Positions 9,402 to 23,423 of a DNA stretch of 64,000 nt are shown here, piece by piece. The stretch is from Bryobacteraceae bacterium (GTDB lineage Bacteria; Acidobacteriota; Terriglobia; Bryobacterales; Bryobacteraceae). The notes beneath the pieces were generated by a model. The model saw only the letters and a program-made list of their open reading frames with translations. It had not been told where the DNA came from and searched no databases. Position 1 is the stretch's first letter; each line of letters opens with the position of its first letter. A program made the position numbers and the translations under genes. The DNA lies in assembly GCA_965277435.1 (NCBI GenBank), contig OZ255821.1:1784930-1848929 (forward strand). Reading direction: 5' to 3'.

Positions 9402-10001
9402 ATGGCTGTTGGCGATTGCGAAGTGCTCGACCCCCGGATCCGGAGGACACGGCAACTGCTTCAGCAAGCGTTAGATAAGCTATTGGAAACTCGGAGCTTC
9501 GATCAGATTTCGGTACAGGACATTGCCGAGCTGGCGACTGTGAACCGGGCAACCTTTTACGATCATTACCCGGATAAGTTTGCGTTACTCAAATCTTCCG
9601 TTGCCGGGCGGTTTCATAGTTTGCTGGCGGAACGGCAGGTGCGTTTTGACGGAACCTGTAGTTGGGCAATCGGCTCTCTGATTCGGGCAGTCTGCGATTT
9701 TCTAGCCCGGGCACAGGGCGGATGCTGTGAGCGCCAGCGGCAGTTCGATCCGTTTATGGAATCGAGCATTATCGAGTTGAGCCGGGGAATCTTGCTGGAG
9801 GGAGTGGAACGACATCCGCCGGCCAATGGAATTGCGCCCGAGTTGGTTGCGACCACGGTAGCGTGGGCCATCTATGGCGCGGCCAGGGAGTGGGTGGACA
9901 GCGTTCCGCGAATTGCGTTAGACGAACTGGTGAATACGGTACTGCGTCTGATCCTGCCGATGCTGTCGACAGTTGAGAGGTTAGAGCTTCATCACGAGTA
10001 A
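9402..10001 (+). CDS. TetR/AcrR family transcriptional regulator
   Basis: N-terminal HTH FDQISVQDIAELATVNRATFYDHYPDKFALL. It is divergent from azoR-DoxX. Confidence 0.85.
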   Translation: MAVGDCEVLDPRIRRTRQLLQQALDKLLETRSFDQISVQDIAELATVNRATFYDHYPDKFALLKSSVAGRFHSLLAERQVRFDGTCSWAIGSLIRAVCDFLARAQGGCCERQRQFDPFMESSIIELSRGILLEGVERHPPANGIAPELVATTVAWAIYGAAREWVDSVPRIALDELVNTVLRLILPMLSTVERLELHHE

Positions 10002-12557
10002 GGTCATGTCATCCTGTTGCGGTGCGCCGTTGGTGAAGAGATCGGCGTCAGCAAACAGCTTTGCCACGATGGCATCGGCGGGCCTGGTTCGCACGGTAAG
10101 CGCGGCAGCTACCATGCGCGCTTCGCCCCATTCTTCGTCGGTTGCGGTCATGGCTTCGCTGATGCCATCGGTATAGGCGATAAGAAGATCACCGGACTCG
10201 AGAGCGACTGTTTGCTCTTCATACTGAAGATTGGGAATCAGGCCGATCACCGGGCCGCCCGCCTCAAGGAGAAGGGGGCTGCAGCCTTCGCGCAGGATGA
10301 CAGGCGGATTATGGCCCGCGTTTACGTAGCTAAGTTGCTTTGGGACCGGATCGAAGATGGCAAAGAAGAAGGTGGCGTAGCGAGTAATGGTCGAACCTTC
10401 GTAAATGACGCGGTTCACATTCGCCATGAGTTTCGACAGATTGTGAACGCCCTCTTCGAGCATCATGCCGTGGATAGAAGCACGCAATCCGGCCATCACC
10501 AGGGCAGCAGAAACACCTTTGCCGGAGACATCCCCGACCGCGAGCGCAAGACGGCCATCGGCGAGTTGGATGAAGTCGAAATAGTCTCCGCCGACGGCTT
10601 GAGCGGGGCGGCAGGCGCCAGCGAGACTAATGCCGGGCAGCTGCGGGATCGACTGCGGAAACAGATGCTCCTGGACTTCGCGGGCGATTTCAATTTCGCG
10701 ATTGATACGTTCCCGCTGGGCGGCTTCACGGGCGAGCGAATGGGCGAGCTCGCTGACTTCGAGTGCCAGGCCAGTTTGCTGGGCAACCGACTGAAGAAGA
10801 CGCAGGTCGGACGGTGAATAGGGCTCGTCGGAGAGCTTAGGGCCGAGGGTCATCAGGCCAAGCAGCTTGTCGCGGCCGGGCAACGGCAGCAGAAGTTCCG
10901 CATTCACCGCATCGAGCGTGTGTCTTTCAGCTGTACCGGCCTGGGCAAACCAGCTCTCCGGATCTTCGCGATAGAGCGTGGTGGGGCGTTGGTCACGAGT
11001 CAGCGTCTCAACGGCTTTAGAAGATTCATCGAGAAGAAGCGGAGTAGCGAAATCGATGCCGACAGCCTGCTGCAGACGAAACACCTGGCTGCCGCGCAGG
11101 AGAACAGAGATCTGCGGCACGTGCAGGACTTCCGAGATGCGGCGGCATACGGTGGAGAGGAGAGAATCGCTTTCGGTGAGAGTGCGGGCCTGCTCGGAGA
11201 GCTCGCTGAGCACGAGTTCAGAGTGGTAGGCTTCACGAAAAAATTTGCGATCGAGCCAGAACTGCAGCCGGCGGCCGAGACCAAAGTGAGCGAGCGCGAC
11301 GAAAACGGCGGCCAGTGCGAGCGGGATGATGACGTCGTGCAGCTGGATCGATTGGCGCGAGAGCAGAGGAGCGGTGAGTTGCCAGAGAACGATCACCAAA
11401 ACGATGAGCTGAAAGATCCGAAGAGAGAGGCGCGCCAGAACATATTTGGTCCCCATGCGGAGCAGGATGCGGAGATCGAGCGCTCGCTGCACGACGACCA
11501 CATAGGCGAGGGAGAAAGGAAAAAAGAGGGTGAAAATCGCTCCGATGCTAAACAGCCAGGCAGCTACCGGCCGCGGGATCGCAATGTGCAGCGTTTGCGG
11601 GAGGACAAAGACGAGGAGCAGTGCGCCGATCCCAATCACGGAGCCTCCGCAGAGAACCTGTAGTCTGCGGCGGACATCCGAAGTCGATGCCGAACGGAGC
11701 TTGTCGAAGATGGCGACCCAGTAGAGGAGTACGCATCCTAGCGCCAGCCAACCGCCTACTTTGTCGACGAGCAAAAGGTGGGTTTGAATTTGAAGGCCCA
11801 GGGACGGGTAATAGAGTTCGCCGAATCTGACCGCCAATGAGAGCACCAGGCCGGCCAATTGCGGGGCGATCAGAACCCATTTGAGCCAGGGCCAGCGACG
11901 ATCGAGACGCCAGCGTTCGGGGAAATAAATCCCGATGAGAAGGACCAGGACACCGGAGGTGTTTTGTAGAATTTGGAACCAAACCTCCTGGAAGACTCGC
12001 AAGCCGCCTGTCCACCAGTCAGGCCTTCCAAAGAGCGCTTCGGGAAGGCTCAAAAGCAGGAGAATCAGCCAGGCATTGCGCTCGGCCGGTTTGGCTACAA
12101 TCACCCAGTAACCCACCAGCAGGCAAACCAAAGGGCAGACAAACTGTAATGCGAGATGGTTGATCCACTCGAGCGTGGACCAGGGAGGACGGTGCGAGGT
12201 CCGAAGGCGGATCACTGCCGTCCGGCGATGGCCATTCGCATCATGTACGCCGATGCGGAGAATCTGGCCGGCGTGAGCTTTACGGTCAATCGAAATCCAC
12301 TGCGCTTCGCCACGATAAGGTTGGCCATCAATCGACTCGATCACAGCCCCTTCCTTCAAACCGGCGGCGCGCGCTTCTTCGCTGACGCGGGTTACGGTTA
12401 GCGTGTCGTAGTTCATTTCGAACGGATCTTGGGTATGTTGATCGGCGTGTGCAAAACGGTCGTATAGCGCGACGACATTCGCGCCGAAATAGGTGATGCT
12501 GGCGGTGAAGTAGAGAGCGATCAATAGCCAGAGAATTGGGGACGGGCGGGAGCGCAT
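9981..12557 (-). CDS. membrane-bound PDZ / multi-TM sensor / GAF / PP2C (SpoIIE-family) protein serine phosphatase, paralog 1
   Basis: C-terminal PP2C motifs VGGDYFDF, VGDVSGKGVSAALVMA, YVNAGHNPP, AYTDGISEA and QQDDMTLLV. It has a PDZ-like segment near the N-terminus and the shared motif YFPERWRLDRRWPWLKW. Confidence 0.85.
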   Translation of the reverse strand: MRSRPSPILWLLIALYFTASITYFGANVVALYDRFAHADQHTQDPFEMNYDTLTVTRVSEEARAAGLKEGAVIESIDGQPYRGEAQWISIDRKAHAGQILRIGVHDANGHRRTAVIRLRTSHRPPWSTLEWINHLALQFVCPLVCLLVGYWVIVAKPAERNAWLILLLLSLPEALFGRPDWWTGGLRVFQEVWFQILQNTSGVLVLLIGIYFPERWRLDRRWPWLKWVLIAPQLAGLVLSLAVRFGELYYPSLGLQIQTHLLLVDKVGGWLALGCVLLYWVAIFDKLRSASTSDVRRRLQVLCGGSVIGIGALLLVFVLPQTLHIAIPRPVAAWLFSIGAIFTLFFPFSLAYVVVVQRALDLRILLRMGTKYVLARLSLRIFQLIVLVIVLWQLTAPLLSRQSIQLHDVIIPLALAAVFVALAHFGLGRRLQFWLDRKFFREAYHSELVLSELSEQARTLTESDSLLSTVCRRISEVLHVPQISVLLRGSQVFRLQQAVGIDFATPLLLDESSKAVETLTRDQRPTTLYREDPESWFAQAGTAERHTLDAVNAELLLPLPGRDKLLGLMTLGPKLSDEPYSPSDLRLLQSVAQQTGLALEVSELAHSLAREAAQRERINREIEIAREVQEHLFPQSIPQLPGISLAGACRPAQAVGGDYFDFIQLADGRLALAVGDVSGKGVSAALVMAGLRASIHGMMLEEGVHNLSKLMANVNRVIYEGSTITRYATFFFAIFDPVPKQLSYVNAGHNPPVILREGCSPLLLEAGGPVIGLIPNLQYEEQTVALESGDLLIAYTDGISEAMTATDEEWGEARMVAAALTVRTRPADAIVAKLFADADLFTNGAPQQDDMTLLVMKL

Positions 12558-13161: not shown

Positions 13162-15639
13162 ATGAACTGGCTGGAGGATTTCCGAAAAGATCTGAAGTAT
13201 GCAGTAAGAAGTTTGGGCGCAAACCCGCTGTTTGCGATCGTGGCCGTGTTGACGCTGGCGCTGGGCATCGGAGCGAATGCCGCCATCTTCAGCGTGATCA
13301 ATGCGGTAGTGCTGCGGACGTTGCCGGTGCGCGATCCACAGCAGCTTTACTATCTGCGCTCTGATGGAGAGCCCAACGGAGCCAGTAACACGGGCAGCTC
13401 CGATTCTTCGTTTAGTGAGTCCGTATTCGAGCGGATGCGTGCCGATAAGCGGGTGTTCTCGGACGTGATGGCTTATGTGCCGCTAGGCCTTAACAAAATA
13501 GCCGTGCGTGCGGGCAATCTGCCGGAGGAAGCCTCGGCTCAAATGGTGAGTGGTAATTTCTTCAGCGGGTTGGGCGTGCGCTCGCGCTGCGGGCGGCTGC
13601 TCACGGCGGCTGATGAGCGCGATCACACACCCGTCGCCGTGCTGAATTACGGGTATTGGAGCCGGCGTTTTGCGGGCAATTGCGACGCGATCGGCCAAAC
13701 GATGTCGATCAATGGAGTGGCGTTGACGATCGTGGGTGTGGCGGGTTCACGGTTTGAAGGCCTCGGCGGCGATGCGACCGATTTGTGGATTCCGCTGCAA
13801 ACCCGGCCGCAGTTGAATGCCTGGGGCATGCAGGGTGAACAGTTCTATGCGACGCCCAATTGGTGGTGCCTGCTGCTGACGGCGCGGCTCGCCCCCGGTG
13901 TAAACAAGGCGCAAGCGGAAGCGGCTGCCAATCCGGTTTTTCAACGGGCCGCCTATGAGCATCTGGGCGGGAAGCCGATGCGCGGGGAGAAGCCGACCCG
14001 TTTGCATCTGCTCGAAGCGCGCGGATTAGGCGGCTATAAAGAAGCTTACGAAAAGCCGCTGACGCTGCTGCTGATCATGGTCGGGGTGATTCTGGTCATC
14101 GCGTGCGGCAATGTGTCGTTGCTGCTGGCGGCGCGGAACACGGCCCGGCGGCGGGAGTTCAGCGTACGCCTGGCGTTGGGCGGCAGCCGGGGACGGCTGT
14201 TTCGCCAATTGCTGGTTGAGAGCCTCCTGCTGGTGTCGGTGGGAGCGGCGCTTGGCTGGCTGTTTGCCGTTGCAGCAACGCAGGTGCTGGCGAAATGGTC
14301 CGAAATAGAGGCTGATCTTACGCCCGATTGGCGGGTCCTGGCGTTCACGCTGGCGATTTCGCTGGTAGCCGGGACAATTTCAGGTTTGATGCCGATGCTG
14401 GGTGCGGTGAAAGTGTCAATAGCGGAGACTTTGAAGACGACAGCGTCGACGGCTTTTCGCGATCAAGCGAAACGACGCGTGGGGCAATTCACGACCGCGC
14501 TGCAGGTGGCGTTATGCCTGGTGTTGCTGGTGGGCGCCGCGTTGCTGGTCCGCACTTTGCAGAACTTGAAGGACGTGGATCTTGGCTTCCGTTCCGAAAG
14601 CTTGCTGGTGTTCGGAGTAAGTCCGCATTTACAGGCGAACGCACACGATAAGGCCACCGGCTTTTATCGCGGGTTGATCGACAAACTGCGCTCTCTGCCG
14701 CAAGTGGAAGCTGTGACGCTCATGCAGAATCGTCTGGGGTCGCAGTGGAGCAACAATGGAGGAACAGTTCTCGATGGAAAAGATCCGCAGCCTGGCCAGC
14801 AATCGCTGATGCGTTGGAATGCGGTTGGTCCAAATTATTTTGGGACGCTTCACATCCGGCTTATCGAAGGCCGTGATTTCAACGACGGCGACACGCAGAA
14901 CTCGGCCAAAGCGGCGGTTGTCAACCGCACGTTTGTAGATCGTTACCTTAAAGGGCGGAGCGCGCTCGGGCATACCGTGTCGTTTACAAGCAGGCTGTCG
15001 TTCGCGATTGTGGGCGTGGCCGCCGACAGTAAATACACGAGCGTGCAAGAACAAGGGCAACCGATGGCTTACTTCCCGTATACGCAAATCTCGGATCTCG
15101 GCACGATGCATGTGGAGGTGCGCGCGCAGGGTAACCCGAAACTGCTGCTTCCAGAGATCCAGCGGGTATTGGCAAGCTTTGCGCCGGACCTGGCGATGTT
15201 GCAGCCCATGACACAGCGGGAACAGTTCGACGAATCGATCACCGCAGAGGCGCTGATCGCCCGTTTGTCGGCCTGTTTTGGACTGCTGGCCGTCACGCTG
15301 GTGGCGACGGGTCTTTATGGAACGATTGCTTATAACGTAAACCGGCGAACTTCGGAACTGGGGATCCGTCTGGCGCTGGGGGCGAGCCGTGGCCGGGTGC
15401 TTTGGATGATCCTGCGCGAAGGATTGCAGATTTGCGGTGTAGGGTTATTGATCGGATTGCCGCTGGCGTTTGCGGCGGCGCGACTGCTTCGTTCCCTGCT
15501 GTATGGATTGACGCCGTATGACCCGGGATCGATGGGCGCAGCGATTGTCGGCATTCTCGTGGTGACCATGGCAGCTTGTCTGATTCCGGCCAGGCGCGCT
15601 GCTTCGATCGACCCGGCAATCGCGCTGCGTAACGAATAA
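13162..15639 (+). CDS. ADOP family duplicated orphan permease (MacB/FtsX-like, two permease halves)
   Basis: The N-terminus MNWLEDFRKDLKYAVRSLGANPLFAIVAVLTLALGIGANAAIFSV is characteristic of the acidobacterial duplicated orphan permease family. It carries two MacB-periplasmic/FtsX modules. Confidence 0.85.
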   Translation: MNWLEDFRKDLKYAVRSLGANPLFAIVAVLTLALGIGANAAIFSVINAVVLRTLPVRDPQQLYYLRSDGEPNGASNTGSSDSSFSESVFERMRADKRVFSDVMAYVPLGLNKIAVRAGNLPEEASAQMVSGNFFSGLGVRSRCGRLLTAADERDHTPVAVLNYGYWSRRFAGNCDAIGQTMSINGVALTIVGVAGSRFEGLGGDATDLWIPLQTRPQLNAWGMQGEQFYATPNWWCLLLTARLAPGVNKAQAEAAANPVFQRAAYEHLGGKPMRGEKPTRLHLLEARGLGGYKEAYEKPLTLLLIMVGVILVIACGNVSLLLAARNTARRREFSVRLALGGSRGRLFRQLLVESLLLVSVGAALGWLFAVAATQVLAKWSEIEADLTPDWRVLAFTLAISLVAGTISGLMPMLGAVKVSIAETLKTTASTAFRDQAKRRVGQFTTALQVALCLVLLVGAALLVRTLQNLKDVDLGFRSESLLVFGVSPHLQANAHDKATGFYRGLIDKLRSLPQVEAVTLMQNRLGSQWSNNGGTVLDGKDPQPGQQSLMRWNAVGPNYFGTLHIRLIEGRDFNDGDTQNSAKAAVVNRTFVDRYLKGRSALGHTVSFTSRLSFAIVGVAADSKYTSVQEQGQPMAYFPYTQISDLGTMHVEVRAQGNPKLLLPEIQRVLASFAPDLAMLQPMTQREQFDESITAEALIARLSACFGLLAVTLVATGLYGTIAYNVNRRTSELGIRLALGASRGRVLWMILREGLQICGVGLLIGLPLAFAAARLLRSLLYGLTPYDPGSMGAAIVGILVVTMAACLIPARRAASIDPAIALRNE

Positions 15640-15734
15640 GCGTCCCACTAGTGGAGTGTCGCGATGAAAACGTTACCACGCGATGCAACTCCGGTCGCTC
15701 CGCTCGCGGCTCTGAAGCAGCGTATTCTTCGGAG

Positions 15735-16120
15735 CCATGAGCCACGTCAGTGGCTCTCCAACCGGAAGCACGGAAACCATGAGCCACGTCAGTGGCTCTC
15801 CAACCGGAAGCACGGAAACCATGAGCCACGTCAGTGGCTCTCCAACCGGAAGCACGGAAACCATGAGCCACGTCAGTGGCTCTCCAACCGGAAGCACGGA
15901 AACCATGAGCCACGTCAGTGGCTCTCCAACCGGAAGCACGGAAACCATGAGCCACGTCAGTGGCTCTCCAACCGGAAGCACGGAAACAATGAGCCACGTC
16001 AGTGGCTCTCCAACCGGAAGCACGGAAACCATGAGCCACGTCAGTGGCTCTCCAACCGGAAGCACGGAAACAATGAGCCACGTCAGTGGCTCTCCAACCG
16101 GAAGCACGGAAACAATGAGC
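15735..16120. repeat. tandem array: 9 full copies plus an 8-nt partial copy of the 42-bp unit CCATGAGCCACGTCAGTGGCTCTCCAACCGGAAGCACGGAAA
   Basis: Read directly from the sequence. Each unit contains the perfect inverted repeat GAGCCAC-GTCA-GTGGCTC. The only polymorphism is C/A at unit position 2 (A in units 7 and 9 and in the partial copy). Confidence 0.95.
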
Positions 16121-16311
16121 GAAGCGATTGGAGTTCTTTACCTCAATATCAAACGAAATGGTTGTGACACCCCACTCGATACATCCTTGCCTCCCCTCAG
16201 TAGGGGTAATCCTACCTGTTTTTGTCTGTAGACTTTCTGCCTCGCAGCCGATAGCTGAACTGTACGGCGTCAGGTGTCTTCTCGCCTGGCGTTGACGACA
16301 CAAAAGCCGCG

Positions 16312-19300
16312 ATGCAAATTCAAGACAACAAGACAAACGAGCGTGACGGGAAGCCGCTGAGTTTTGCTCCTCGCTTAGGATCTTTACAAAGATCGCCAGA
16401 CGCCGAGTGGGTTCTACCCGAGCCGGAGTGGAGATCTTGCACCAGGTCACTCTCTCGCCGGACTGCAGCCGCTATCGAAGCCCGCTGCCGTGAAACAGGT
16501 GTGTCCCTGGAATGTTTGCTGGCTGCTGCCTGGAGTCAGATTCTTGCTTGCTACCCGACCGCTGAAGCCGCTCCACAGATGTGGGTTTATCAGCGGAACG
16601 AGTTCGCTAAGCCCTGGTGCGCCGTCAAGGTTCCCGCGGAATGCGACGCTACCGTTTCCGGCTTCCTGCAAGCCGTATCAACGTCGCTGCGAAACGAAGC
16701 CAGACGAGAAACGCCGGAATGGCCAGAGCGGAACGCGGAAAAGATTGCCCGCGACAGGCTGGATTGTGCTTTCCATGTCGTTCTGAGCGGTGAAGCCTCA
16801 GCGGAAATAATTTCAGAAGCCATTAGAGCGCAAACTGCCGTATTGCTCTCGTTGTCAATGAACCACAAGGCAAGTCTCTCGCTTTCGTACCATGCTCAAT
16901 ACTTCAGCGCTGAATTCGCCGGAATCCTAATCGATTGCCTTTTGCACTTGCTGTCACAGATGGTGACGCCAGGTTGTTCGCTTGTTTCGGAATTGACTTT
17001 CTTACCCGCTTCTACGTCGGTTATCGCGAGAGAACGACGCCCGAGCGCGTTTGTTCAGGATGTCTTTGAGTCTCGCGTGGCGTGCGATCCGGCTAAGGTG
17101 GCCGCGAGCTTCCGGAACCAGGAAATCAGCTACCGGGAATTGAATGAGCGTGCGAACCAGCTGGCTCGATACTTGCGAACTCTCGGGTGTGGCCCTGACG
17201 TAATTGTGGCCATTCATCTGGCGAGATCGATCGATCTTTTGATCGCAATGTTGGGTGTCGTTAAAGCGGGCGGGGCTTTCCTGCCGCTGGATGCCTCCCT
17301 TCCTCCGGGCAGGATTGATGCGGTGATGGAGGACTCGGGCGCGCCTCTCGTGATTACGTCTAGCAAACTGACGCATCGCTTTGCGGAGTCAACGGCTCAT
17401 CGCGTGACGATAGATTCGCTGGACGCTATCTGGCGAAACGAAGCCACCGGTTCGCTCGATTCGGTTACGTCCGACCATGATCTCGCTTACGTGATTTACA
17501 CGTCCGGTTCGACCGGCACGCCTAAGGGCGTGATGATTGAGCATCGCAACCTGGCGGTTTTCTTAGATGCGCTGGATCCGGTTTTCGGGCCAGAGCCCGG
17601 GGTCATGCTGGCCATTGCCAGTTCCTCGTTCGATATCAGCATTATGGAACTGCTTTGGAGTTTGTCTCGCGGGTTCCACATCGTCTTGCACGAAGGAGAC
17701 GAAGGGCTGCCCATCGTTTCCGGACCAGGCTCAGTGCCTGAACAAATCCGGCGACACGGGGTGACTCATATGATGGGCACTCCCACTTTGATGCGTATGC
17801 TGGCGAGCGATCCTGATGGGGCAGCGGCCTTCGGACAACTGCGAGTTTGCCTGGTGGGCGGAGAGGCGTTTCCCGAGAGCCTGGCTGCGCTGTTGCTCGA
17901 TTGCATGCCGGGGAAGATCGTAAATGCGTATGGGCCCACTGAAACTACGGTCTGTGCGACCTGTTATGAGGTGACCAGCACCGGTGAAGCCATCCCGATC
18001 GGTCGTCCGCTCAAGGACGTCACAGTGTACGTTGTGGATAAGTGGGGTCGACAGCTGCCGCCGTTGGCGTCCGGTGAGCTTTGGATCGGCGGACCGATGG
18101 TGGGCCGGGGATATCTGCACCGGCCGGAACTGACCGCCGAACGATTCCTGGATGATCCCTTTGACAAAGAAGGCCGGATCTATCGCACAGGCGATCTCGT
18201 TCGCTTTGATCTTTACGGACGCCTGGAGTTTATCGACCGGCTGGACTCGCAGGTGAAGGTCAGAGGTTATCGGATCGAACTCGGCGAGGTGGAAGCGGCG
18301 TTACAGAGACATCCGGCCGTGCAACAGGCTGTGGTGGTTGTTCGTTCGGAGGGGAATGGGGCGAAGAGCCTTGTCGGATATTGCACGCCTTCCAATGTGC
18401 GGGCCCTCGACTCGCACAAGCTTCGCGGCTTCCTGCAGGAAAGTTTGCCGGGCTACATGGTGCCCTCAGCGCTGCACTGTCTGCGCGAATTCCCGGTGAC
18501 GTCGAGCGGGAAAGTCGATCGAGTCCGGCTCGCGCAACTTGATCTGTCATCACAAGAGAAGGGTCAGATGGAGAACGCCGCTGGTGTGACTCCCATTGAT
18601 CCGGCGCTGCAAAAGATCGAAGCGGTTCTGTGCGCCTGGTGCCGCGAACTTCTGCGTCTGCCGCAGGTACAGGCATCGGACGATTATTTTGCGATCGGTG
18701 GAGAGTCTTTGAGCGCAGCGCGGCTCATGAGGAAGATCGCCGAGACGTATGGCGCGAATATCCGCCTGAGCGAGTTGGTGCAGCGTCGCACGATGCGCGC
18801 CTTGGCGCAGTTAGTAGCGGTAGCGAATCAGGATTTGGCGTGGTCGCCGGTGGTGCCGTTCCAGACAGATGGAGAGAAGCCAACGTTGTTCCTGATTGCT
18901 GGACTGGGCGGTAACATTCTCAACTTCCAATTCGTCGCCGAAGCCCTGGAGAACAGACCCGTTTATGGAGTGGAGGCGCAGGCGTCAGGCAAAGATTCGG
19001 AAGTACTGGCGAGCGTGGAAGAGATGGCGCGCACATATCTGGAAGAAATCCGGCGTATCCAGCCCCACGGCCCCTACCATTTTGCCGGCTATTCGTTCGG
19101 CGGCGTGCTGGCTTTCGAGATGGCGCAGCAGCTTCGATCAGCCGGGCAGGAAATCGGATTTCTTGGACTGCTGGACACTTGCGAATGGCACTATACCCGG
19201 TCCGTGTTGGGGAATTTGAGTCCGCTCGAACGATTTCAGATCCAGTATGGCAACACGCTGAAACAAATCGTTTTCGGGCCGAAGCGCCGGGCCACCCTCA

Positions 19301-19659
19301 GCAAGCGTCTGAAGGCGACCATAGATAATCGCAAGCTTGCGGCGAGCCGCCGTTCAGGAAGCCGGATACGAGCTTTGGAGGCTAGCGTGGAACATCGCAA
19401 TTACTATGCTTTGACTCATTACAAGCCAAAGCGGTACCACGGAGAGATTCACCTGTTCAGTTGCCCCGATAGTTCGCCGCTGCGAGGCAACGACCCAACG
19501 CTCGGGTGGGGACATCTTGCCGGCAAGGTCAATATTTCGGAAATAGCAGGTGAGCACGAGAAATTGACCGCCCCACCGTTCGCCGGCATGCTGGGACGCG
19601 CGATTGATAAGTCACTCGACAGCATTGCGGCTCCTCAGTTAGTCGAGGAGGCAGCTTAA
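16312..19659 (+). CDS. single-module NRPS-like enzyme: partial condensation lobe, adenylation, peptidyl carrier, thioesterase
   Basis: A-domain cores LAYVIYTSGSTGTPKGV, YGPTE, YRTGDL, GYRIELGEVE and SGKVDR. PCP motif FAIGGESLSAARL. TE motif GYSFGGVLAFE. The N-terminal ~250 aa resemble only the C-terminal lobe of a C domain, and no HHxxxDG motif was seen. Confidence 0.85.
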   Translation: MQIQDNKTNERDGKPLSFAPRLGSLQRSPDAEWVLPEPEWRSCTRSLSRRTAAAIEARCRETGVSLECLLAAAWSQILACYPTAEAAPQMWVYQRNEFAKPWCAVKVPAECDATVSGFLQAVSTSLRNEARRETPEWPERNAEKIARDRLDCAFHVVLSGEASAEIISEAIRAQTAVLLSLSMNHKASLSLSYHAQYFSAEFAGILIDCLLHLLSQMVTPGCSLVSELTFLPASTSVIARERRPSAFVQDVFESRVACDPAKVAASFRNQEISYRELNERANQLARYLRTLGCGPDVIVAIHLARSIDLLIAMLGVVKAGGAFLPLDASLPPGRIDAVMEDSGAPLVITSSKLTHRFAESTAHRVTIDSLDAIWRNEATGSLDSVTSDHDLAYVIYTSGSTGTPKGVMIEHRNLAVFLDALDPVFGPEPGVMLAIASSSFDISIMELLWSLSRGFHIVLHEGDEGLPIVSGPGSVPEQIRRHGVTHMMGTPTLMRMLASDPDGAAAFGQLRVCLVGGEAFPESLAALLLDCMPGKIVNAYGPTETTVCATCYEVTSTGEAIPIGRPLKDVTVYVVDKWGRQLPPLASGELWIGGPMVGRGYLHRPELTAERFLDDPFDKEGRIYRTGDLVRFDLYGRLEFIDRLDSQVKVRGYRIELGEVEAALQRHPAVQQAVVVVRSEGNGAKSLVGYCTPSNVRALDSHKLRGFLQESLPGYMVPSALHCLREFPVTSSGKVDRVRLAQLDLSSQEKGQMENAAGVTPIDPALQKIEAVLCAWCRELLRLPQVQASDDYFAIGGESLSAARLMRKIAETYGANIRLSELVQRRTMRALAQLVAVANQDLAWSPVVPFQTDGEKPTLFLIAGLGGNILNFQFVAEALENRPVYGVEAQASGKDSEVLASVEEMARTYLEEIRRIQPHGPYHFAGYSFGGVLAFEMAQQLRSAGQEIGFLGLLDTCEWHYTRSVLGNLSPLERFQIQYGNTLKQIVFGPKRRATLSKRLKATIDNRKLAASRRSGSRIRALEASVEHRNYYALTHYKPKRYHGEIHLFSCPDSSPLRGNDPTLGWGHLAGKVNISEIAGEHEKLTAPPFAGMLGRAIDKSLDSIAAPQLVEEAA

Positions 19660-20396
19660 GCGAAACGTTCAAGCAGTTCTGCTGTCCCGGCTAGTGGCCA
19701 AACGTGCAAGCGACGGCAACGATCGTGATAAGCGATCGCACCTTCGTAGCCGCCCACATGAGTAACGGCCTGCAAGGTCCACTCGTCGCAAGGCGGGCAT
19801 AGCTGTGCAGGTTCAGCCGGTCGCAGGGTAACTCGAAAGCTGTTCAGGGGAACGGAAAGACCGCCGCCAAGCGCCTTTATATAGGCTTCTTTACGAGTCC
19901 AACAAGCGAAGAACGCTTTTTCACGATCTTGTTCGGGAAGGGAAAAGAAGTCGCGGGCTTCATCTACGTGGAAAAACTGTTCGACTAGCCGCGGCATTTC
20001 TTCTAGTGGCCTGACGCGTTCGATATCGACACCCAGTTCGCAGCCGGTAGTAAATCCAAAGAGCGCGGCGCCTTGCGACTCCGAGATATTGAATTGCAAG
20101 TCGGACGCAGGCTCGACGAGGCAGGGCTTACCCGCGGTTCCAAAGGCAAATTCGATTGCCTGTGCGGATTGCGCCAGATACGACCCCAGAAATACGCGGA
20201 GGAGACCGCGCGACGCGATGAAACGATCTGTCAGCTGTTGCGACCGATAGCGGTCCGCTCGCGCCTCTTCAGCGGGCGAAAGCAGGCGGCGGCAGCGATC
20301 AAGGGTGCGGGCATCGGCATCCAGATCGACCGTCCAAAGGTGGATTACTTTGCCCTTCAGTGCTAGAGCGTCATTGAAAGGAAACGTCGGAGCCAA
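19656..20396 (-). CDS. Sfp-type 4'-phosphopantetheinyl transferase
   Basis: Motifs GKPCL, GVDIERV and FFACWTRKEAYIKALG. TTG start. Its stop overlaps the NRPS stop. Confidence 0.85.
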   Translation of the reverse strand: MAPTFPFNDALALKGKVIHLWTVDLDADARTLDRCRRLLSPAEEARADRYRSQQLTDRFIASRGLLRVFLGSYLAQSAQAIEFAFGTAGKPCLVEPASDLQFNISESQGAALFGFTTGCELGVDIERVRPLEEMPRLVEQFFHVDEARDFFSLPEQDREKAFFACWTRKEAYIKALGGGLSVPLNSFRVTLRPAEPAQLCPPCDEWTLQAVTHVGGYEGAIAYHDRCRRLHVWPLAGTAELLERFA

Positions 20397-20639
20397 CTAA
20401 ATCGTAGCCCTCGTCAGCCGCGGTTTGGACGGCAGAGGCAGTCAACTTTGCTTTGTCGGCCTCGTGCGGATCGTCGCAGTAACGGCGAATTACTTCCTCG
20501 CCCACCACGATCCGGACCAGCCATTCTTCTTCTGCTCATCCCAGGAGACGCTCGCGCGGTCAGCTTTCATGCCTCTACAATACTGCAAAGCCCGATGTCG
20601 GCTAGCTGTTCGGCGAAGGCAGCAACATAAACTGGAGGT

Positions 20640-21569
20640 ATGCCTGTCGCTGTGGAAATCGCATCCGAGCAGAGTCTGCTTGGACGCATCGGCAATACGC
20701 CGCTTCTCAAGATTGGGCTGGCTGGCCGTGGCGACGTGACGGTATGGGGCAAAGCGGAGTTCCTGAATCCGGGTGGTTCCGTGAAGGATCGCCCGGCGCT
20801 GAACATGATTCGTGACGGTGAAGCGCGCGGTCTTTTGACCCCGGGGAAAACTCTGCTTGACTCGACCAGCGGGAACACCGGCATTGCTTACGCCATGATC
20901 TGCGCGGCGAAGGGTTATGCGGTGAGGCTGTGCCTGCCTGCAAGTGCGTCGCCGGAGCGCAAACAAATTCTCAAGGCATACGGCGCTGAGCTCGTGTTGA
21001 CCGGCGCAGCCGAAGGTTCTGACGGAGCGTTCCGCACTTGTCAGGCGATCTATGCGGCCGATCCGGAAAAATACTTCTATCCAAATCAATATGGCAATCC
21101 CGCCAACTGGCAGGCGCACTATGAGACGACGGCGCCCGAAATCATCGAGCAGACTGCGGGCGGCGTCACACACTTCGTGGCGATCTTAGGAACGACTGGA
21201 ACTTTCACGGGTGTCACACGGAGACTCAAACGAGAGTTGCCCGGTGTCGAGTGTTACTCGGTGCAACCCGCCTCACCCCTGCATGGTTTAGAAGGCACGA
21301 AGCACATGCCAAGTTCGCTGCAACCGGCCATTTACGACCTGACCCTCGCGGACGATAATCTCTGGGTGGAAACGGAGGATGCGTACGAGATGGCGCGACG
21401 CCTGGCGAGAGAAGAAGGCTTGCTGGTGGGTGTTTCAGCGGCGGCCAATGTGGTGGCGGCCAGCCGCGTGGCGGAAACACTGGCTGCGGAAGGGAACGGC
21501 GGACTGGTGGTCACGATCCTTTGCGATGGCGGCCAGAAATATCTCAGCGAGCAGTTTCGGACCGGATGA
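20640..21569 (+). CDS. cysM: PLP-dependent cysteine synthase (CysM/CysK family; context suggests the thiocarboxylate-dependent CysM type)
   Basis: Motifs GNTPLL, PLP-lysine NPGGSVKDRPA and TSGNTGIAYA. It is followed by JAMM and Ubl-E1 genes, as in the mycobacterial CysO/CysM/Mec context. Confidence 0.8.
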   Translation: MPVAVEIASEQSLLGRIGNTPLLKIGLAGRGDVTVWGKAEFLNPGGSVKDRPALNMIRDGEARGLLTPGKTLLDSTSGNTGIAYAMICAAKGYAVRLCLPASASPERKQILKAYGAELVLTGAAEGSDGAFRTCQAIYAADPEKYFYPNQYGNPANWQAHYETTAPEIIEQTAGGVTHFVAILGTTGTFTGVTRRLKRELPGVECYSVQPASPLHGLEGTKHMPSSLQPAIYDLTLADDNLWVETEDAYEMARRLAREEGLLVGVSAAANVVAASRVAETLAAEGNGGLVVTILCDGGQKYLSEQFRTG

Positions 21570-21573
21570 CGGC

Positions 21574-21999
21574 ATGATCGAAATCGAACTGAAGCCCTGG
21601 CAAGCGATGTTGCTACATGCCGAACGAACCTACCCAAACGAGTGCTGCGGGGCGATGCTGGGGCACACGCAAGGCGGAACCAAAATGGTGACCGAGGCAA
21701 TCGCTCTCGAAAACGCGTACGCCGGCGAGCAGGGCGAACGATATGAATTGCGGCCGGAAGATTTGCGCAACGCTGACATCGCAGCCCGGGAGCGCGGCCT
21801 CGATTTGATCGGAATATTTCATTCGCATCCCGATTGCGATGCCTATTTTTCTCAAACAGATTTGCAGAACTCCTGTCCCTGGTATTCGTTCGTGGTGCTC
21901 TCCATTCAGCGAGGCAAGTTCGACCACGCTAACAGTTTCTTGCCGGATATGGACCAGACAGCAGCAGAACAAGAGGAACTCAAATGGCCAAGATCTTAA
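21574..21999 (+). CDS. mec: JAMM/MPN+ metallopeptidase (Mec-like)
   Basis: The start at ATG 21574 gives MIEIELKPW. JAMM signature: ECCG glutamate followed by HSHPDCDAYFSQTD (HxH...S..D). Confidence 0.8.
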   Translation: MIEIELKPWQAMLLHAERTYPNECCGAMLGHTQGGTKMVTEAIALENAYAGEQGERYELRPEDLRNADIAARERGLDLIGIFHSHPDCDAYFSQTDLQNSCPWYSFVVLSIQRGKFDHANSFLPDMDQTAAEQEELKWPRS

Positions 22000-23423
22000 T
22001 CCCCACAGCACTGCGGCAGTTTACTGAGCAACAGGATTCGGTGGATGTGACCGGCGCGACCGTAGCGGATGCCTTGAACGCGTTGACCGCACACTATCCG
22101 AACATAAAAAGAAACCTCTTCAACGATGCCGGCAAGCTGCGCAGTTTCGTGAATGTTTATGTGAATGACGAAGATATTCGCTATCTAGATAAGGAAGCAA
22201 CGGAACTCGAAGGCACGGAGACCATTTCGATTGTGCCGAGTATCGCGGGTGGAGCATCGGGCGTTGCTGAGCCACCGGCTTCCACCCTGACGAATGAAGA
22301 AATCGCCCGCTACAGTCGTCATCTGATTTTGCCCGAAGTGGGCGTGGAAGGGCAGCAGAAGCTGAAGCAGGCGAAAGTCGCCATGATCGGCGCTGGCGGC
22401 CTGGGTGCCCCGGTGGGCTTGTATCTGGCGGCAGCCGGCGTGGGTCGCGTGGGTATTGTCGACTTTGATGTCGTCGATGCTTCGAACCTGCAACGCCAGG
22501 TGATTCATGGAACACACGACATCGGCCGCAAGAAGCTCGATTCCGCCGCTGATCGCATGCTCGACATCAATCCGAATATTCAAATCGATAAGTTCGATAC
22601 TGGATTGACGAGCGCGAACGCTCTCGAGATCTTACAGGATTACGACGTCGTCATCGATGGCACTGATAACTTTCCAACGCGCTACCTGGTCAACGATGCC
22701 TGTGTGCTTCTAAAGAAGCCGAATGTGTATGGTTCGATCTTTCGCTTCGAAGGACAAGCCACTGTCTTTGCTTATGAAGATGGTCCATGCTACCGCTGCC
22801 TCTATCCTGAGCCGCCGCCTCCGGGCCTGGTGCCGAGTTGCGCCGAAGGTGGCGTGCTCGGTATTCTGCCGGGCATCATCGGAGTGATTCAAGCCACCGA
22901 AGCCGTGAAGATCATTCTCGGAGTCGGCGAAACACTCAAGAACCGGTTGTTGCTTTATGATGCTCTGGGGATGCGTTTTCGCGAACTGAAATTGCGCCGC
23001 GATCCCGAATGCCCCGTGTGTGGCGACCATCCCACCGTGACTACGTTAATCGATTACCAGGAGTTTTGCGGAATAAAGCCTATGGCCTCTCAACCAGCAC
23101 CAGCCGGCGACCAGATCGACGTGACAGAAGTGAAGAGCAAGCTGGATCGCGGCGATGCATTTACTTTGATCGATGTGCGCGAACCGCATGAATACCAGAT
23201 CGCCCGCATACCCGGCGCGAAGCTGATTCCACTCGGCGACTTACCAAAGCACCTAAGTGATCTCGACCCCAATGCCGAAATAGTGGCGCATTGTAAGAGT
23301 GGGGGGCGCAGCCAGAAAGCTGTTGACTTACTCAAAGCAAGTGGTTTTAAGAACGCCCGCAACATGACGGGCGGTATTACGGCCTGGAGCGACAAGGTTG
23401 ATCCAACCGTTCCGAAGTATTAA
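21984..23423 (+). CDS. moeZ: fusion protein: ThiS/MoaD/CysO-like ubiquitin-fold domain (ends ...SIAGG at residues 89-90), MoeB/ThiF-type E1 adenylyltransferase, and rhodanese (MoeZ-like)
   Basis: The N-terminal ~90 aa have a beta-grasp pattern ending in GG. This is followed by RYSRHLIL, the GAGGLG nucleotide loop, two CxxC pairs and the rhodanese active-site loop CKSGGRS. Confidence 0.8.
   Translation: MAKILIPTALRQFTEQQDSVDVTGATVADALNALTAHYPNIKRNLFNDAGKLRSFVNVYVNDEDIRYLDKEATELEGTETISIVPSIAGGASGVAEPPASTLTNEEIARYSRHLILPEVGVEGQQKLKQAKVAMIGAGGLGAPVGLYLAAAGVGRVGIVDFDVVDASNLQRQVIHGTHDIGRKKLDSAADRMLDINPNIQIDKFDTGLTSANALEILQDYDVVIDGTDNFPTRYLVNDACVLLKKPNVYGSIFRFEGQATVFAYEDGPCYRCLYPEPPPPGLVPSCAEGGVLGILPGIIGVIQATEAVKIILGVGETLKNRLLLYDALGMRFRELKLRRDPECPVCGDHPTVTTLIDYQEFCGIKPMASQPAPAGDQIDVTEVKSKLDRGDAFTLIDVREPHEYQIARIPGAKLIPLGDLPKHLSDLDPNAEIVAHCKSGGRSQKAVDLLKASGFKNARNMTGGITAWSDKVDPTVPKY

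What the first reader, a model, noticed from the sequence alone, without database searches (positions are those of the whole stretch)
15735..16120. Phased 42-bp x 9 hairpin-containing tandem array upstream of the NRPS-like gene
What the sequence shows:
- Nine perfect head-to-tail copies, plus an 8-nt partial tenth, of CCATGAGCCACGTCAGTGGCTCTCCAACCGGAAGCACGGAAA. They sit in the 672-nt gap between the ADOP permease and the NRPS gene.
- Each unit holds a perfect 7-bp inverted repeat with a 4-nt spacer (GAGCCAC GTCA GTGGCTC).
- The 42-bp period equals four turns of B-DNA, so every palindrome faces the same side of the helix.
- The single polymorphism (C/A at unit position 2, in units 7 and 9 and the partial copy) is silent only in the plus frame that starts at ATG 15737. 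That frame reads (MSHVSGSPTGSTET)x9. The change alters the residue in the other three open frames.
- Four of the six frames are open through the array.

Competing readings (all inference):
- (a) An iteron-like or phased array of dimeric regulator sites controlling the NRPS/PPTase locus.
- (b) A structured RNA of nine hairpins separated by linkers. Each linker carries two GGA motifs on the plus strand (18 in total), a layout reminiscent of CsrB/RsmZ-type protein-sponge RNAs.
- (c) A real repeat-peptide ORF (a multi-core precursor?) next to a biosynthetic gene.
- (d) A neutral minisatellite.

I know of no described element with this unit.
Basis: partly seen in the sequence, partly recalled or inferred. 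Interest (0 to 1): 0.75.

Follow-up and report, generated by a model that had tools for sequence, protein, structure and literature searches.

The report
Expanded repeat inside a small transposon
The 42-bp x 9 array is real, but it is an internal piece of a small non-coding mobile element (MITE-like, found at 15 or more other places in a sister genome) that has stuttered from one copy to nine, so it is an ordinary selfish repeat and not a switch, sponge RNA or peptide gene for the neighbouring NRPS-like gene.

Summary
In detail: 9.2 near-perfect 42-bp units lie at 15735-16120, each with a 7-bp/4-nt hairpin.

The array is the centre of a 525-bp element (15651-16175) with 22-nt terminal inverted repeats, sitting in a CTAG.

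An exact 22-mer of the unit occurs at 15 loci in one other genome, a Bryobacteraceae MAG about 90% identical to the window. Fourteen loci hold one unit and one holds 13. A further copy holds none.

In single-copy form the unit is bracketed by the 8-bp direct repeat CCATGAGC. That is a slippage seed, and it explains the "partial tenth copy".

- An orthologous locus in a third genome has 1 unit where the MAG has 13.
- Another orthologous locus is an empty site with a single CTAG, as expected for IS630-type insertion (TA duplication).
- The orthologous permease-NRPS spacer in three relatives lacks the element entirely.
- Neighbouring genes elsewhere are unrelated housekeeping genes.
- There is no Rfam match, no compensatory pairing and no protein family.

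Verdict: a new MITE family with a BOX-like variable central module. The array is a recent, probably neutral expansion. Interest is low.

The parts
15649..15650 (.). Left copy of the putative TA target-site duplication, inside CTAG 15648-15651.
   Evidence: Read directly. A filled/empty orthologous pair (L005 vs L021) shows one CTAG at the empty site and CTAG on both sides of the element. 8 of 8 class A copies have [C/A]TA on the left.
15651..15734 (+). Left arm of the class A element, including the left terminal inverted repeat GTGGAGTGTCGCGATGAAAACG (15651-15672).
   Evidence: 100% identical over 91 nt to the consensus left arm of copies in the sister genome. It pairs with the right arm in folds. 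The nhmmer profile match to the left arm and first unit is E=7.6e-50.
15687..15705 (+). Inner inverted-repeat arm AACTCCGGTCGCTCCGCTC. It pairs with 16117-16135 and closes a stem around the array.
   Evidence: the repeat finder I1: 19 nt, 84% complementary. Same pairing in the MFE fold.
15729..16137 (+). Core module (about 72 nt when single-copy: TCGGAGCC-[unit]-CCATGAGCGAAGCGATTGGAGTTCT), here expanded. The same core sits in class A, B and C elements.
   Evidence: The core is 98.6-100% identical at 14 single-copy loci with three unrelated kinds of arms.
15735..16120 (+). Tandem array: 9 x 42 bp plus an 8-nt remnant (CAATGAGC, 16113-16120). The remnant is the second copy of the 8-bp direct repeat that brackets the unit in single-copy elements.
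   Evidence: Single-copy elements read ..GAGCCATGAGC[34 nt]CCATGAGCGAAG...
15739..15756 (.). First of nine hairpin palindromes GAGCCAC-GTCA-GTGGCTC. The others follow every 42 bp, up to 16075-16092.
   Evidence: Predicted as isolated 7-bp hairpins on both strands.
16121..16175 (+). Right arm of the class A element, including the right terminal inverted repeat (16154-16175, ..GGTTGTGACACCCCAC).
   Evidence: 96.7% identical over 60 nt to the consensus right arm. nhmmer E=1.1e-35.
16176..16177 (.). Degenerate right copy of the TA duplication (now TC, followed by G).
   Evidence: Read directly. The right flank is TAG in five class A copies (L001, L005, L007, L013 and the zero-unit copy in L007) and mutated in the others.
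13162..15639 (+). Upstream neighbour, not part of the element: MacB_PCD/FtsX duplicated permease. Its stop codon is 9 nt before the CTAG.
   Evidence: Pfam.
16312..19659 (+). Downstream neighbour, not part of the element: A-T-TE NRPS-like protein. The spacer conserved with relatives begins at 16192.
   Evidence: Pfam. Sequence identity to the sister locus resumes at window 16192.

Best explanation
The array is the expanded central module of a non-autonomous transposable element (a MITE-like repeat, here called class A).

**The element.** In its basic form it is about 195 bp, non-coding, and folds end to end as a rod. It has 22-nt imperfect terminal inverted repeats (GTGGAGTGTCGCG... / ...CGCGACACCCCAC). 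It inserts at TA inside CTAG, often the TAG stop codon of a gene, and duplicates the TA. That is the behaviour of IS630/Tc1-mariner transposases. The transposase acting in trans is inferred and was not found.

**The unit.** In the basic element one 42-bp stretch is bracketed by the 8-bp direct repeat CCATGAGC.
- Replication slippage or unequal exchange between these repeats deletes the unit (0 copies) or duplicates it (inferred).
- Once two copies exist, the 42-bp homology, probably helped by the 7-bp hairpin in each unit, allows rapid further expansion. Here it reached 9 copies; at another locus in the sister genome it reached 13.

**Consequences.**
- The near-identity of the units, the single C/A variant shared by non-adjacent units, the 'partial tenth copy' and the exact 42-bp phasing are all expected from this history.
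- The position upstream of the NRPS-like gene is incidental.
- Any effect on neighbours would be a by-product: nine hairpins in a permease 3' UTR or NRPS leader.
For: **Dispersal**
- The exact 22-mer occurs at 15 loci of one Bryobacteraceae genome and in none of the other about 185,000 species genomes. Fourteen loci have one unit; L004 has 13.
- The window is about 88-91% identical to that genome in flanking genes.

**Anatomy**
- Eight class A copies in the sister genome share arms with the window: six intact single-unit copies plus the 13-unit and IS-interrupted ones. A zero-unit copy and an edge fragment were also found.
- The element folds as a rod on both strands, z = -6.4 and -5.6.

**Copy-number series**
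- 0 units at L007 6264-6400, 1 in most copies, 9 in the window, 13 in L004.
- At the orthologous ribBA-thiE locus, a third genome (L019) has the same element with its private variants but 1 unit where L004 has 13.
- The 8-bp direct repeat CCATGAGC brackets the unit in every single-copy element.

**Mobility**
- L021 is an empty site...GCAGACTAGTACTT..., where L005 has ...GCAGACTAG[element]CTAGTAGAT....
- Four class A copies overlap the stop codon of the adjacent ORF by 3-4 nt.
- CTAG is four-fold under-represented in the window, 62 observed against 241 expected.
- L013 and L004 have ATAG on the left, with CTAG (L013) or CTGG (L004) on the right. That fits a 2-bp TA duplication better than a 4-bp one.
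- IS630-family elements insert at TA, preferentially in CTAG, and duplicate the TA (PMC2170065, citing Tenzen & Ohtsubo 1991).

**Not tied to the NRPS gene**
- The orthologous spacers in L016, L017 and L018 (NRPS protein at least 90% identical) have no unit.
- Neighbours of other copies are a TonB-type outer-membrane protein, PurH, RibBA, ThiE, a GH36 glycosidase and a CAAX protease.

**Treated as repeat DNA by another mobile element**
- An IS110-family IS is inserted in the core at L008.
Against: - No autonomous IS with matching terminal repeats was found in the 64-kb window or in about 170 kb of sister-genome loci. The IS630-like remnants at the sister locus have different ends.
- Only one clean empty site is available.
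- The central core is more conserved than the arms: 3/51 against 29/122 variable columns, p=0.005. This is the reverse of the usual MITE pattern. The same core occurs in two further element types with unrelated arms.
- An orthologous copy pair is 99.4% identical amid 92-93% flanks.
- These last two points leave room for some constraint on, or homogenisation of, the core.
- The copy number in the window could not be checked against reads.
Confidence: 0.85

Rival explanations
1. It is the same dispersed element and the same internal expansion, but the element is mobilised by an IS5-family transposase (4-bp YTAR/CTAG duplication) or another enzyme, not by an IS630-family one.
For: The filled/empty pair fits a 4-bp CTAG duplication as well as a TA duplication, because the terminal G/C of the inverted repeats completes CTAG. 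No cognate transposase was identified.
Against: L013 has ATAG on the left and CTAG on the right. L004 and L019 have ATAG on the left and CTGG on the right. Both need fewer mutations under a TA duplication in an NTAG target. IS630-like transposase remnants exist in this lineage, though with different ends.
Confidence: 0.15
2. The core or unit is a functional, selected sequence that rides on mobile arms, either a protein-binding palindrome or a structured RNA module. The 9-unit and 13-unit arrays would then act as multivalent binding platforms (sponge or decoy) or as strong attenuators or stabilisers of the surrounding transcripts.
For: - The core is significantly less variable than the arms and is identical across three arm types.
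- The orthologous L004/L019 copy is nearly invariant amid 7-8% flank divergence.
- Both expanded arrays point the same way as their flanking genes.
- The + strand fold has z = -11.4 against -2.2 for the - strand.
- Each unit holds two GGA.
Against: - Absent from the orthologous NRPS spacer in three relatives.
- 1 unit against 13 at an orthologous site.
- 0 of 62 pairs show compensatory change.
- One copy carries a point mutation that breaks the hairpin (L020).
- No Rfam match.
- The low-divergence block around L004/L019 runs about 67 nt past the element, and L003/L020 shows a clear recombination mosaic, so recombination explains the conservation equally well.
- Ascertainment by an exact 22-mer inflates the apparent conservation of the core.
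Confidence: 0.07
3. It is a phased array of operator sites for a dimeric regulator that controls the NRPS/PPTase locus.
For: Perfect 7-4-7 palindromes spaced 42 bp apart (4.0 helical turns), 190 to 570 nt upstream of the NRPS-like start.
Against: - The orthologous NRPS genes in L016-L018 have no such sites.
- The palindrome occurs singly at 14 or more unrelated loci.
- There is no other copy in the 64-kb window even with 3 mismatches allowed.
- The spacing is set by the 8-bp direct repeats of the parent element.
Confidence: 0.02
4. It is a real repeat-peptide ORF, (MSHVSGSPTGSTET)x9, serving as a multi-core precursor.
For: The frame is open from ATG 15737 to 16231, and the only polymorphism is synonymous in that frame.
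Against: - Four frames are open.
- One polymorphic site has a 1-in-3 chance of being synonymous in a given frame.
- There is no Pfam family.
- GGAG lies only 2 nt from the ATG.
- The same frame exists with 0, 1 or 13 units at unrelated intergenic sites and runs into arbitrary flanks.
- Absent next to the orthologous NRPS gene.
- Gene callers demonstrably over-extend ORFs through these elements.
Confidence: 0.01
5. The copy number, or the array itself, is an assembly artefact.
For: Near-identical tandem units are error-prone in assembly, and reads were not available here.
Against: Arrays of the same unit occur at two different loci, in the window genome and in OZ255847.1 (9 and 13 units). The window array has an internal variant pattern (units 7, 9 and the partial tenth). 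At 386-546 bp the arrays are short relative to long reads. The OZ255847.1 contig has 247x coverage by its name.
Confidence: 0.05

Closest known systems
BOX elements of Streptococcus pneumoniae and S. suis (boxA-boxB(n)-boxC)
   Same: - Small, intergenic and dispersed, with terminal modules that pair into a stem.
- A central module (boxB) is absent, single or in tandem arrays, and its number varies between strains at the same locus.
- Larger arrays vary more.
- In S. suis, two families with different terminal modules (A/C and E/F) surround the same boxB (PMC3049150). Here classes A, B and C share one core in the same way.
- Both create spurious ORFs.
   Different: - No sequence relationship is claimed or tested.
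- This element is GC-rich (about 58%), comes from Acidobacteriota, and has a 42-bp unit with its own perfect hairpin.
- It has a clear CTAG/TA insertion signature.
- It is a low-copy family (about 16 exact-core copies per 6.8-Mb genome, against more than 100 BOX elements in a 2-Mb genome).
IS630/Tc1-mariner-derived bacterial MITEs (e.g. Nezha in cyanobacteria; Correia elements also use TA)
   Same: Non-coding, under 200 bp, with terminal inverted repeats and rod-like folding. They insert at TA with TA duplication, and IS630 itself prefers CTAG (PMC2170065; PMC3049150 background). Presence or absence is polymorphic between relatives.
   Different: No parent IS with matching ends has been identified. 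The centre is better conserved than the termini. The internal tandem expansion is not a typical feature of these families.
REP/BIME elements
   Same: Dispersed intergenic palindromes, mosaic combinations of modules, and targets for IS110-family insertion (PMC1525189; here L008).
   Different: REPs are 20-40-nt units without terminal inverted repeats or target duplications, and they are linked to RAYT transposases. This element has TIRs and a TA/CTAG duplication.
Bacterial VNTR/minisatellite loci used in MLVA
   Same: Near-perfect head-to-tail units whose number changes between close relatives through slippage or unequal exchange.
   Different: Here the unit is not locus-specific. It is a module of a mobile element that is present elsewhere in single copy.
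CsrB/RsmZ-type sponge RNAs
   Same: Many short hairpins and many GGA motifs in one stretch.
   Different: - The GGA motifs lie in the linkers, not in the hairpin loops (the loop is GUCA).
- There is no conserved locus, no Rfam match and no covariation.
- The number of units is unconstrained (0 to 13).

Membership tests
MITE (non-autonomous DNA transposon) | Small and without coding capacity | tested here: met
   About 195 bp in single-copy form. The ORFs through it have no Pfam match and differ in their ends between loci.
MITE (non-autonomous DNA transposon) | Terminal inverted repeats and a highly base-paired fold | tested here: met
   GTGGAGTGTCGCG... / ...CGCGACACCCCAC. Rod-like fold with z = -6.4 and -5.6 on the two strands.
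MITE (non-autonomous DNA transposon) | Multiple dispersed, near-identical copies | tested here: met
   Fifteen exact-core loci in OZ255847.1, of which eight are class A copies, plus a zero-unit copy and an edge fragment found by similarity. The window copy comes on top of these.
MITE (non-autonomous DNA transposon) | Target-site duplication, shown by a filled versus an empty site | tested here: met
   L005 (filled) against L021 (empty): a single CTAG becomes CTAG on both sides. Only one such pair is available.
MITE (non-autonomous DNA transposon) | Cognate autonomous IS with the same termini | not testable with these tools
   None found in the window or in loci L001-L021. The whole genomes could not be scanned, and the window genome is withheld.
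IS630/Tc1-mariner-mobilised element | Insertion at TA (CTAG preferred) with a 2-bp TA duplication | tested here: inconclusive
   The flanks fit C/A-TA-[element]-TA-G in 8 of 8 left and 5 of 5 intact right junctions. L013 and L004 favour a 2-bp over a 4-bp duplication. A 4-bp CTAG duplication (IS5-type) is not excluded.
BOX-type modular repeat | Terminal modules flanking a central module present in 0 to n tandem copies, variable between strains | tested here: met
   0, 1, 9 and 13 units. 13 against 1 at an orthologous locus. This is a functional and architectural analogy only.
BOX-type modular repeat | Sequence homology to boxA/B/C | not tested
   No BOX model was available. The hosts are from different phyla, so homology is not expected.
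CsrB/RsmZ-like sponge RNA | GGA motifs presented in hairpin loops; conserved gene in relatives; match to a known family | tested here: not met
   The hairpin loop is GUCA and the GGAs lie in the linkers. Absent at the orthologous locus. No Rfam match at E<=1. Presence of csrA in the genome was not testable.
Structured RNA in general | Compensatory base changes that maintain the pairs | tested here: not met
   0 of 62 predicted pairs have a two-sided change, and the covariation term is unfavourable (+4.06). This rests on 7 closely related copies, so power is low.
RiPP multi-core precursor | Translated ORF conserved beside its tailoring enzymes | tested here: not met
   The ORF is absent beside the orthologous NRPS-like genes. 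The same 'core' occurs at unrelated loci. No family match.
Iteron or operator array | Repeats specific to the controlled locus and conserved with it | tested here: not met

The most novel reading that the evidence does not exclude
The roughly 72-nt core, and with it the 42-bp hairpin unit, is not just cargo. It would be a selected functional module, for example the binding site of a host or transposon protein, or an RNA element. It is shared and kept identical across three otherwise unrelated repeat families and across two species that are about 10% diverged. Its tandem amplification to 9 or 13 copies would then create a multivalent decoy or attenuator that changes expression of the flanking operon (permease/NRPS here, ribBA-thiE in the sister genome).
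Probability: 0.07. Interest if true: 0.5.

Novelty: new member of a known kind. Interest (0 to 1): 0.2.

Why it matters
The main value is as a correction. A striking, perfectly phased hairpin array next to a biosynthetic gene invites regulatory, sponge-RNA or precursor-peptide readings. Comparison with relatives shows it to be the stuttered centre of a selfish element.

Practical points:
- It documents a previously undescribed MITE family in Bryobacteraceae (Acidobacteriota) with a BOX-like variable central module.
- It provides ready VNTR markers for telling apart co-occurring strains in long-read metagenomes.
- It warns that gene callers produce false repeat-protein ORFs across such elements.
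- It gives a clean CTAG/stop-codon insertion example.

The over-conserved core shared by three arm types is a small open question about how modular bacterial repeats are assembled.

Tried and rejected
- **Known RNA families.** Rfam scans with permissive E-value thresholds over the window array, a class A copy and a class B/C hybrid, plus a gathering-threshold scan of all 15 loci, gave nothing but a tRNA beside L001.
- **Other collections.** Two JGI metagenome scans, one with a unit 22-mer and one with the terminal repeat, gave 0 hits. IMG/VR gave 0. Distant blastn of a single-copy element against PLSDB plasmids and INPHARED phages gave no match. The family therefore looks confined to this lineage, and neither a parent IS nor a wider distribution was found.
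- **Window genome.** Attempts to retrieve its other loci (6,576,947-bp contig) through exact proteins failed, because that genome is withheld. The census of copies comes from the sister genome only.
- **Parent IS.** I considered the 1.6-kb insert in the L008 copy as the autonomous parent. This was rejected: it is an IS110-family element without matching ends, inserted into the core.
- **RNA-level selection.** I looked for G-U asymmetry between strands. The counts are too small to mean anything. fold_alignment found no compensatory pairs.
- **Promoters and terminators.** The scan found no sigma-70-like promoter in the spacer. Only terminator-like hits appeared, created by the unit hairpins on the minus strand plus one at 16200-16215. 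This is not informative.
- **Literature.** A search for acidobacterial MITEs found no description of this family.

Full report
**1.
- The 18-nt palindrome GAGCCAC-GTCA-GTGGCTC occurs nine times. All nine are in the array, against 0.05 expected even with three mismatches allowed, and there is no other copy in the 64-kb window.
- Units 7 and 9 and the 8-nt remnant carry A at unit position 2.
- The array lies in the 672-nt spacer between a MacB/FtsX-type duplicated permease (13162-15639) and an A-T-TE NRPS-like gene (16312-19659). A PPTase gene follows on the opposite strand.
- Four frames are open through the array. The C/A variant is synonymous only in the 15737 frame.

**2. The array is embedded in a longer palindromic element.**
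- Folding the spacer shows the sequences on either side of the array pairing with each other. The repeat finder reports a 19-nt inverted repeat at 15687-15705 / 16117-16135.
- The meaning became clear from a scan of 185,579 species-representative genomes with an exact 22-mer of the unit. It found 15 loci, all in one genome: the Bryobacteraceae MAG OZ255847.1. Fourteen loci carry one unit and one (L004) carries 13 tandem units at an unrelated locus.
- The window is not that genome. Its NRPS-like protein is on a 6,576,947-bp contig, and OZ255847.1 encodes an orthologue in the same 90% cluster. The flanking genes are 87.6-91.5% identical in DNA.

**3. Anatomy of the single-copy form.**
- Eight of the sister-genome loci share both arms with the window ("class A"): six intact single-unit copies, the 13-unit L004 and the IS-interrupted L008. 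Two further copies, one without the unit and one cut by a locus edge, were found by similarity.
- The consensus reads CTA|GTGGAGTGTCGCGATGAAAACG...TCGGAGCCATGAGC-CACGTCAGTGGCTCTCCAACCGGAAGCACGGAAA-CCATGAGCGAAGCGATTGGAGTTCT...CGAAATGGTTGCGACACCCCAC|TAG. It is about 195 bp.
- It folds as an end-to-end rod on either strand, z = -6.4 and -5.6.
- The window copy spans 15651-16175. Its left arm is 100% identical to the consensus and its right arm 96.7%.
- Seven other loci carry the same roughly 72-nt core between two different sets of arms: classes B and C, and one B/C hybrid.

**4. How the array arose.**
- In every single-copy element the 42-bp unit is bracketed by the 8-bp direct repeat CCATGAGC.
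- A copy in L007 (6264-6400) reads ...GGAGCCATGAGCGAAGCG..., that is, zero units.
- The series is therefore 0, 1, 9 and 13 units.
- At the ribBA-thiE locus, OZ255847.1 (L004) has 13 units. A third genome (L019, flanks 92-93% identical) carries the same insertion, with the same private substitutions in its arms, but exactly one unit. The expansion is therefore recent and lineage-specific.
- I infer slippage or unequal exchange seeded by the 8-bp repeats and then driven by the 42-bp homology. The unit's hairpin probably stabilises slipped intermediates.
- The 42-bp "four helical turns" phasing is a by-product of the spacing of those repeats.

**5. The element is, or recently was, mobile.**
- The L005 locus has an orthologue (L021) without the element. 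The empty site reads ...GCAGACTAGTACTT... The filled site reads ...GCAGACTAG[TGGGG...CTCCACTAG]TAGAT....
- Across copies the junctions fit [C/A]-TA-[GTGG...CCAC]-TA-G.
- Four class A copies overlap the stop codon of the adjacent ORF by 3-4 nt, so they sit in a TAG stop.
- CTAG is four-fold under-represented in the window, 62 observed against 241 expected.
- Insertion at TA, preferentially within CTAG, with TA duplication, is the signature of IS630/Tc1-mariner transposases (PMC2170065, which cites Tenzen & Ohtsubo 1991). A 4-bp CTAG duplication (IS5-like) is not excluded.
- No autonomous partner was found in the sequence I could reach.

**6. The element is not tied to the NRPS gene.**
- In OZ255847.1 (L016) and two low-coverage relatives (L017, L018) the permease-NRPS spacer contains no unit. 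Instead it holds IS630-like transposase remnants around a 160-aa ORF. Sequence identity to the window resumes at window 16192.
- Genes next to other copies are a TonB-type outer-membrane protein, PurH, RibBA, ThiE, a GH36 glycosidase and a CAAX protease.
- Orientation relative to neighbouring genes is mixed: 5 co-directional and 3 opposite.

**7. The functional readings were tested.**
- There is no Rfam match at permissive thresholds.
- An alignment of seven class A copies shows 0 of 62 pairs with compensatory change. Substitutions break pairs as often as they keep them. One copy has a hairpin-breaking mutation (L020).
- The GGA motifs lie in the linkers, not in the hairpin loop.
- The ORFs have no family match. 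Gene callers visibly over-extend ORFs through these elements: the "223-aa" gene of L019 is the element fused to a real small secreted protein.

**8. Closest known systems.**
- The best analogue is the pneumococcal and S. suis BOX element. There, terminal modules form a stem around a boxB module that is absent, single or tandemly repeated, and that varies between strains. In S. suis, two families with different ends share the same boxB (PMC3049150).
- In its mode of insertion it resembles IS630-derived MITEs.
- An IS110-family IS sits inside the core of one copy (L008). This echoes the known targeting of REP-like repeats by IS110 elements (PMC1525189, PMC11208160).
- I found no description of this family. 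It is a new member of a known kind.

**9. Unexplained residue.**
- The core is less variable than the arms: 3/51 against 29/122 columns, p=0.005, with the 22-mer used for ascertainment excluded.
- The L004/L019 orthologous copy is 175/176 identical amid 92-93% flanks. However, the low-divergence block runs about 67 nt past the element. L003/L020 shows an obvious recombination mosaic, with 92% identity on one side and 699/700 on the other.
- Recombination between co-occurring lineages is therefore at least as good an explanation as selection. I give about 7% to a functional core.

**10. Limits.**
- The window genome itself could not be searched beyond the 64 kb.
- The census relies on an exact-match seed.
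- Only one empty site is available.
- Reads were not available to verify the unit count.

Noticed in passing
L008 1390-3022 (sister genome OZ255847.1): An IS110-family insertion sequence (441-aa ORF with PF01548 and PF02371) is inserted inside the core of a class A element. The junctions are CCATGAG|ACATC...CTATA|AGCGAAG, with AG on both sides. This is consistent with IS110 elements targeting repeated palindromic DNA.
   Followed up: partly
L002, L010, L012 (class B); L006, L009, L015 (class C); L011 (B-left/C-right hybrid): The same roughly 72-nt core (98.6-100% identical) sits between two further, unrelated sets of arms. Class B still folds as a hairpin (z = -3.8); class C does not (z = 0). 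How one core came to be shared by three repeat families is unexplained.
   Followed up: partly
L016 8629-10000, L017 8303-9650, L018 3067-4420: At the spot where the window has the MITE, the sister genomes have remnants of an IS630-like transposase (C-terminal ...WLNQVERWF... region; ends CTAG[C/T]CTC[C/T]CGTCCCAAT) bracketing a 160-aa ORF with no Pfam hit. The spacer is a hot spot for mobile DNA.
   Followed up: partly
L004 (reverse strand) and L019 3329-3572: The orthologous element copies are 175/176 identical, while both flanks are 92-93% identical. The low-divergence block extends about 67 nt into the start of a small secreted-protein gene (MRRALLISMLLPFLAVAADQ...). L003/L020 shows 92% identity on one flank and 699/700 on the other, a recombination mosaic among co-occurring lineages.
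   Followed up: partly
window 19656-23423: The NRPS-like A-T-TE gene is followed by a PPTase, a PALP (CysK/CysM-like) enzyme, a JAB-domain protein (by synteny with L016 15294-15719) and a ThiS-ThiF-rhodanese fusion. This looks like a sulfur-carrier-protein type cassette next to a single-module NRPS.
   Followed up: no
window 16312-17060: Residues 1-250 of the NRPS-like protein have no Pfam hit. By eye they resemble the C-terminal half of a condensation domain, so this may be a truncated C domain or a mis-set start. The sister orthologue is called 10 aa longer.
   Followed up: no
window 9981-12557 (-) and 23476-25821 (+): Two paralogous GAF + SpoIIE (PP2C phosphatase) proteins flank the region. 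The sister genome has a third, tandem copy (L016 17196-21881).
   Followed up: no
window 46822-46874: A perfect 27-bp x 2 tandem duplication (TAGCGGCGCGCGAGAAGAGCGAGAGAC).
   Followed up: no
L001 3632-3942: A class A element lies 45 nt downstream of a tRNA gene (3872-3942, minus strand) and upstream of a TonB-type outer-membrane protein gene. A second, truncated class A left arm lies at the locus edge (5-95).
   Followed up: no
whole window: CTAG is four-fold under-represented (62 observed against 241 expected from base composition). This makes its recurrence at element borders and stop codons meaningful.
   Followed up: yes
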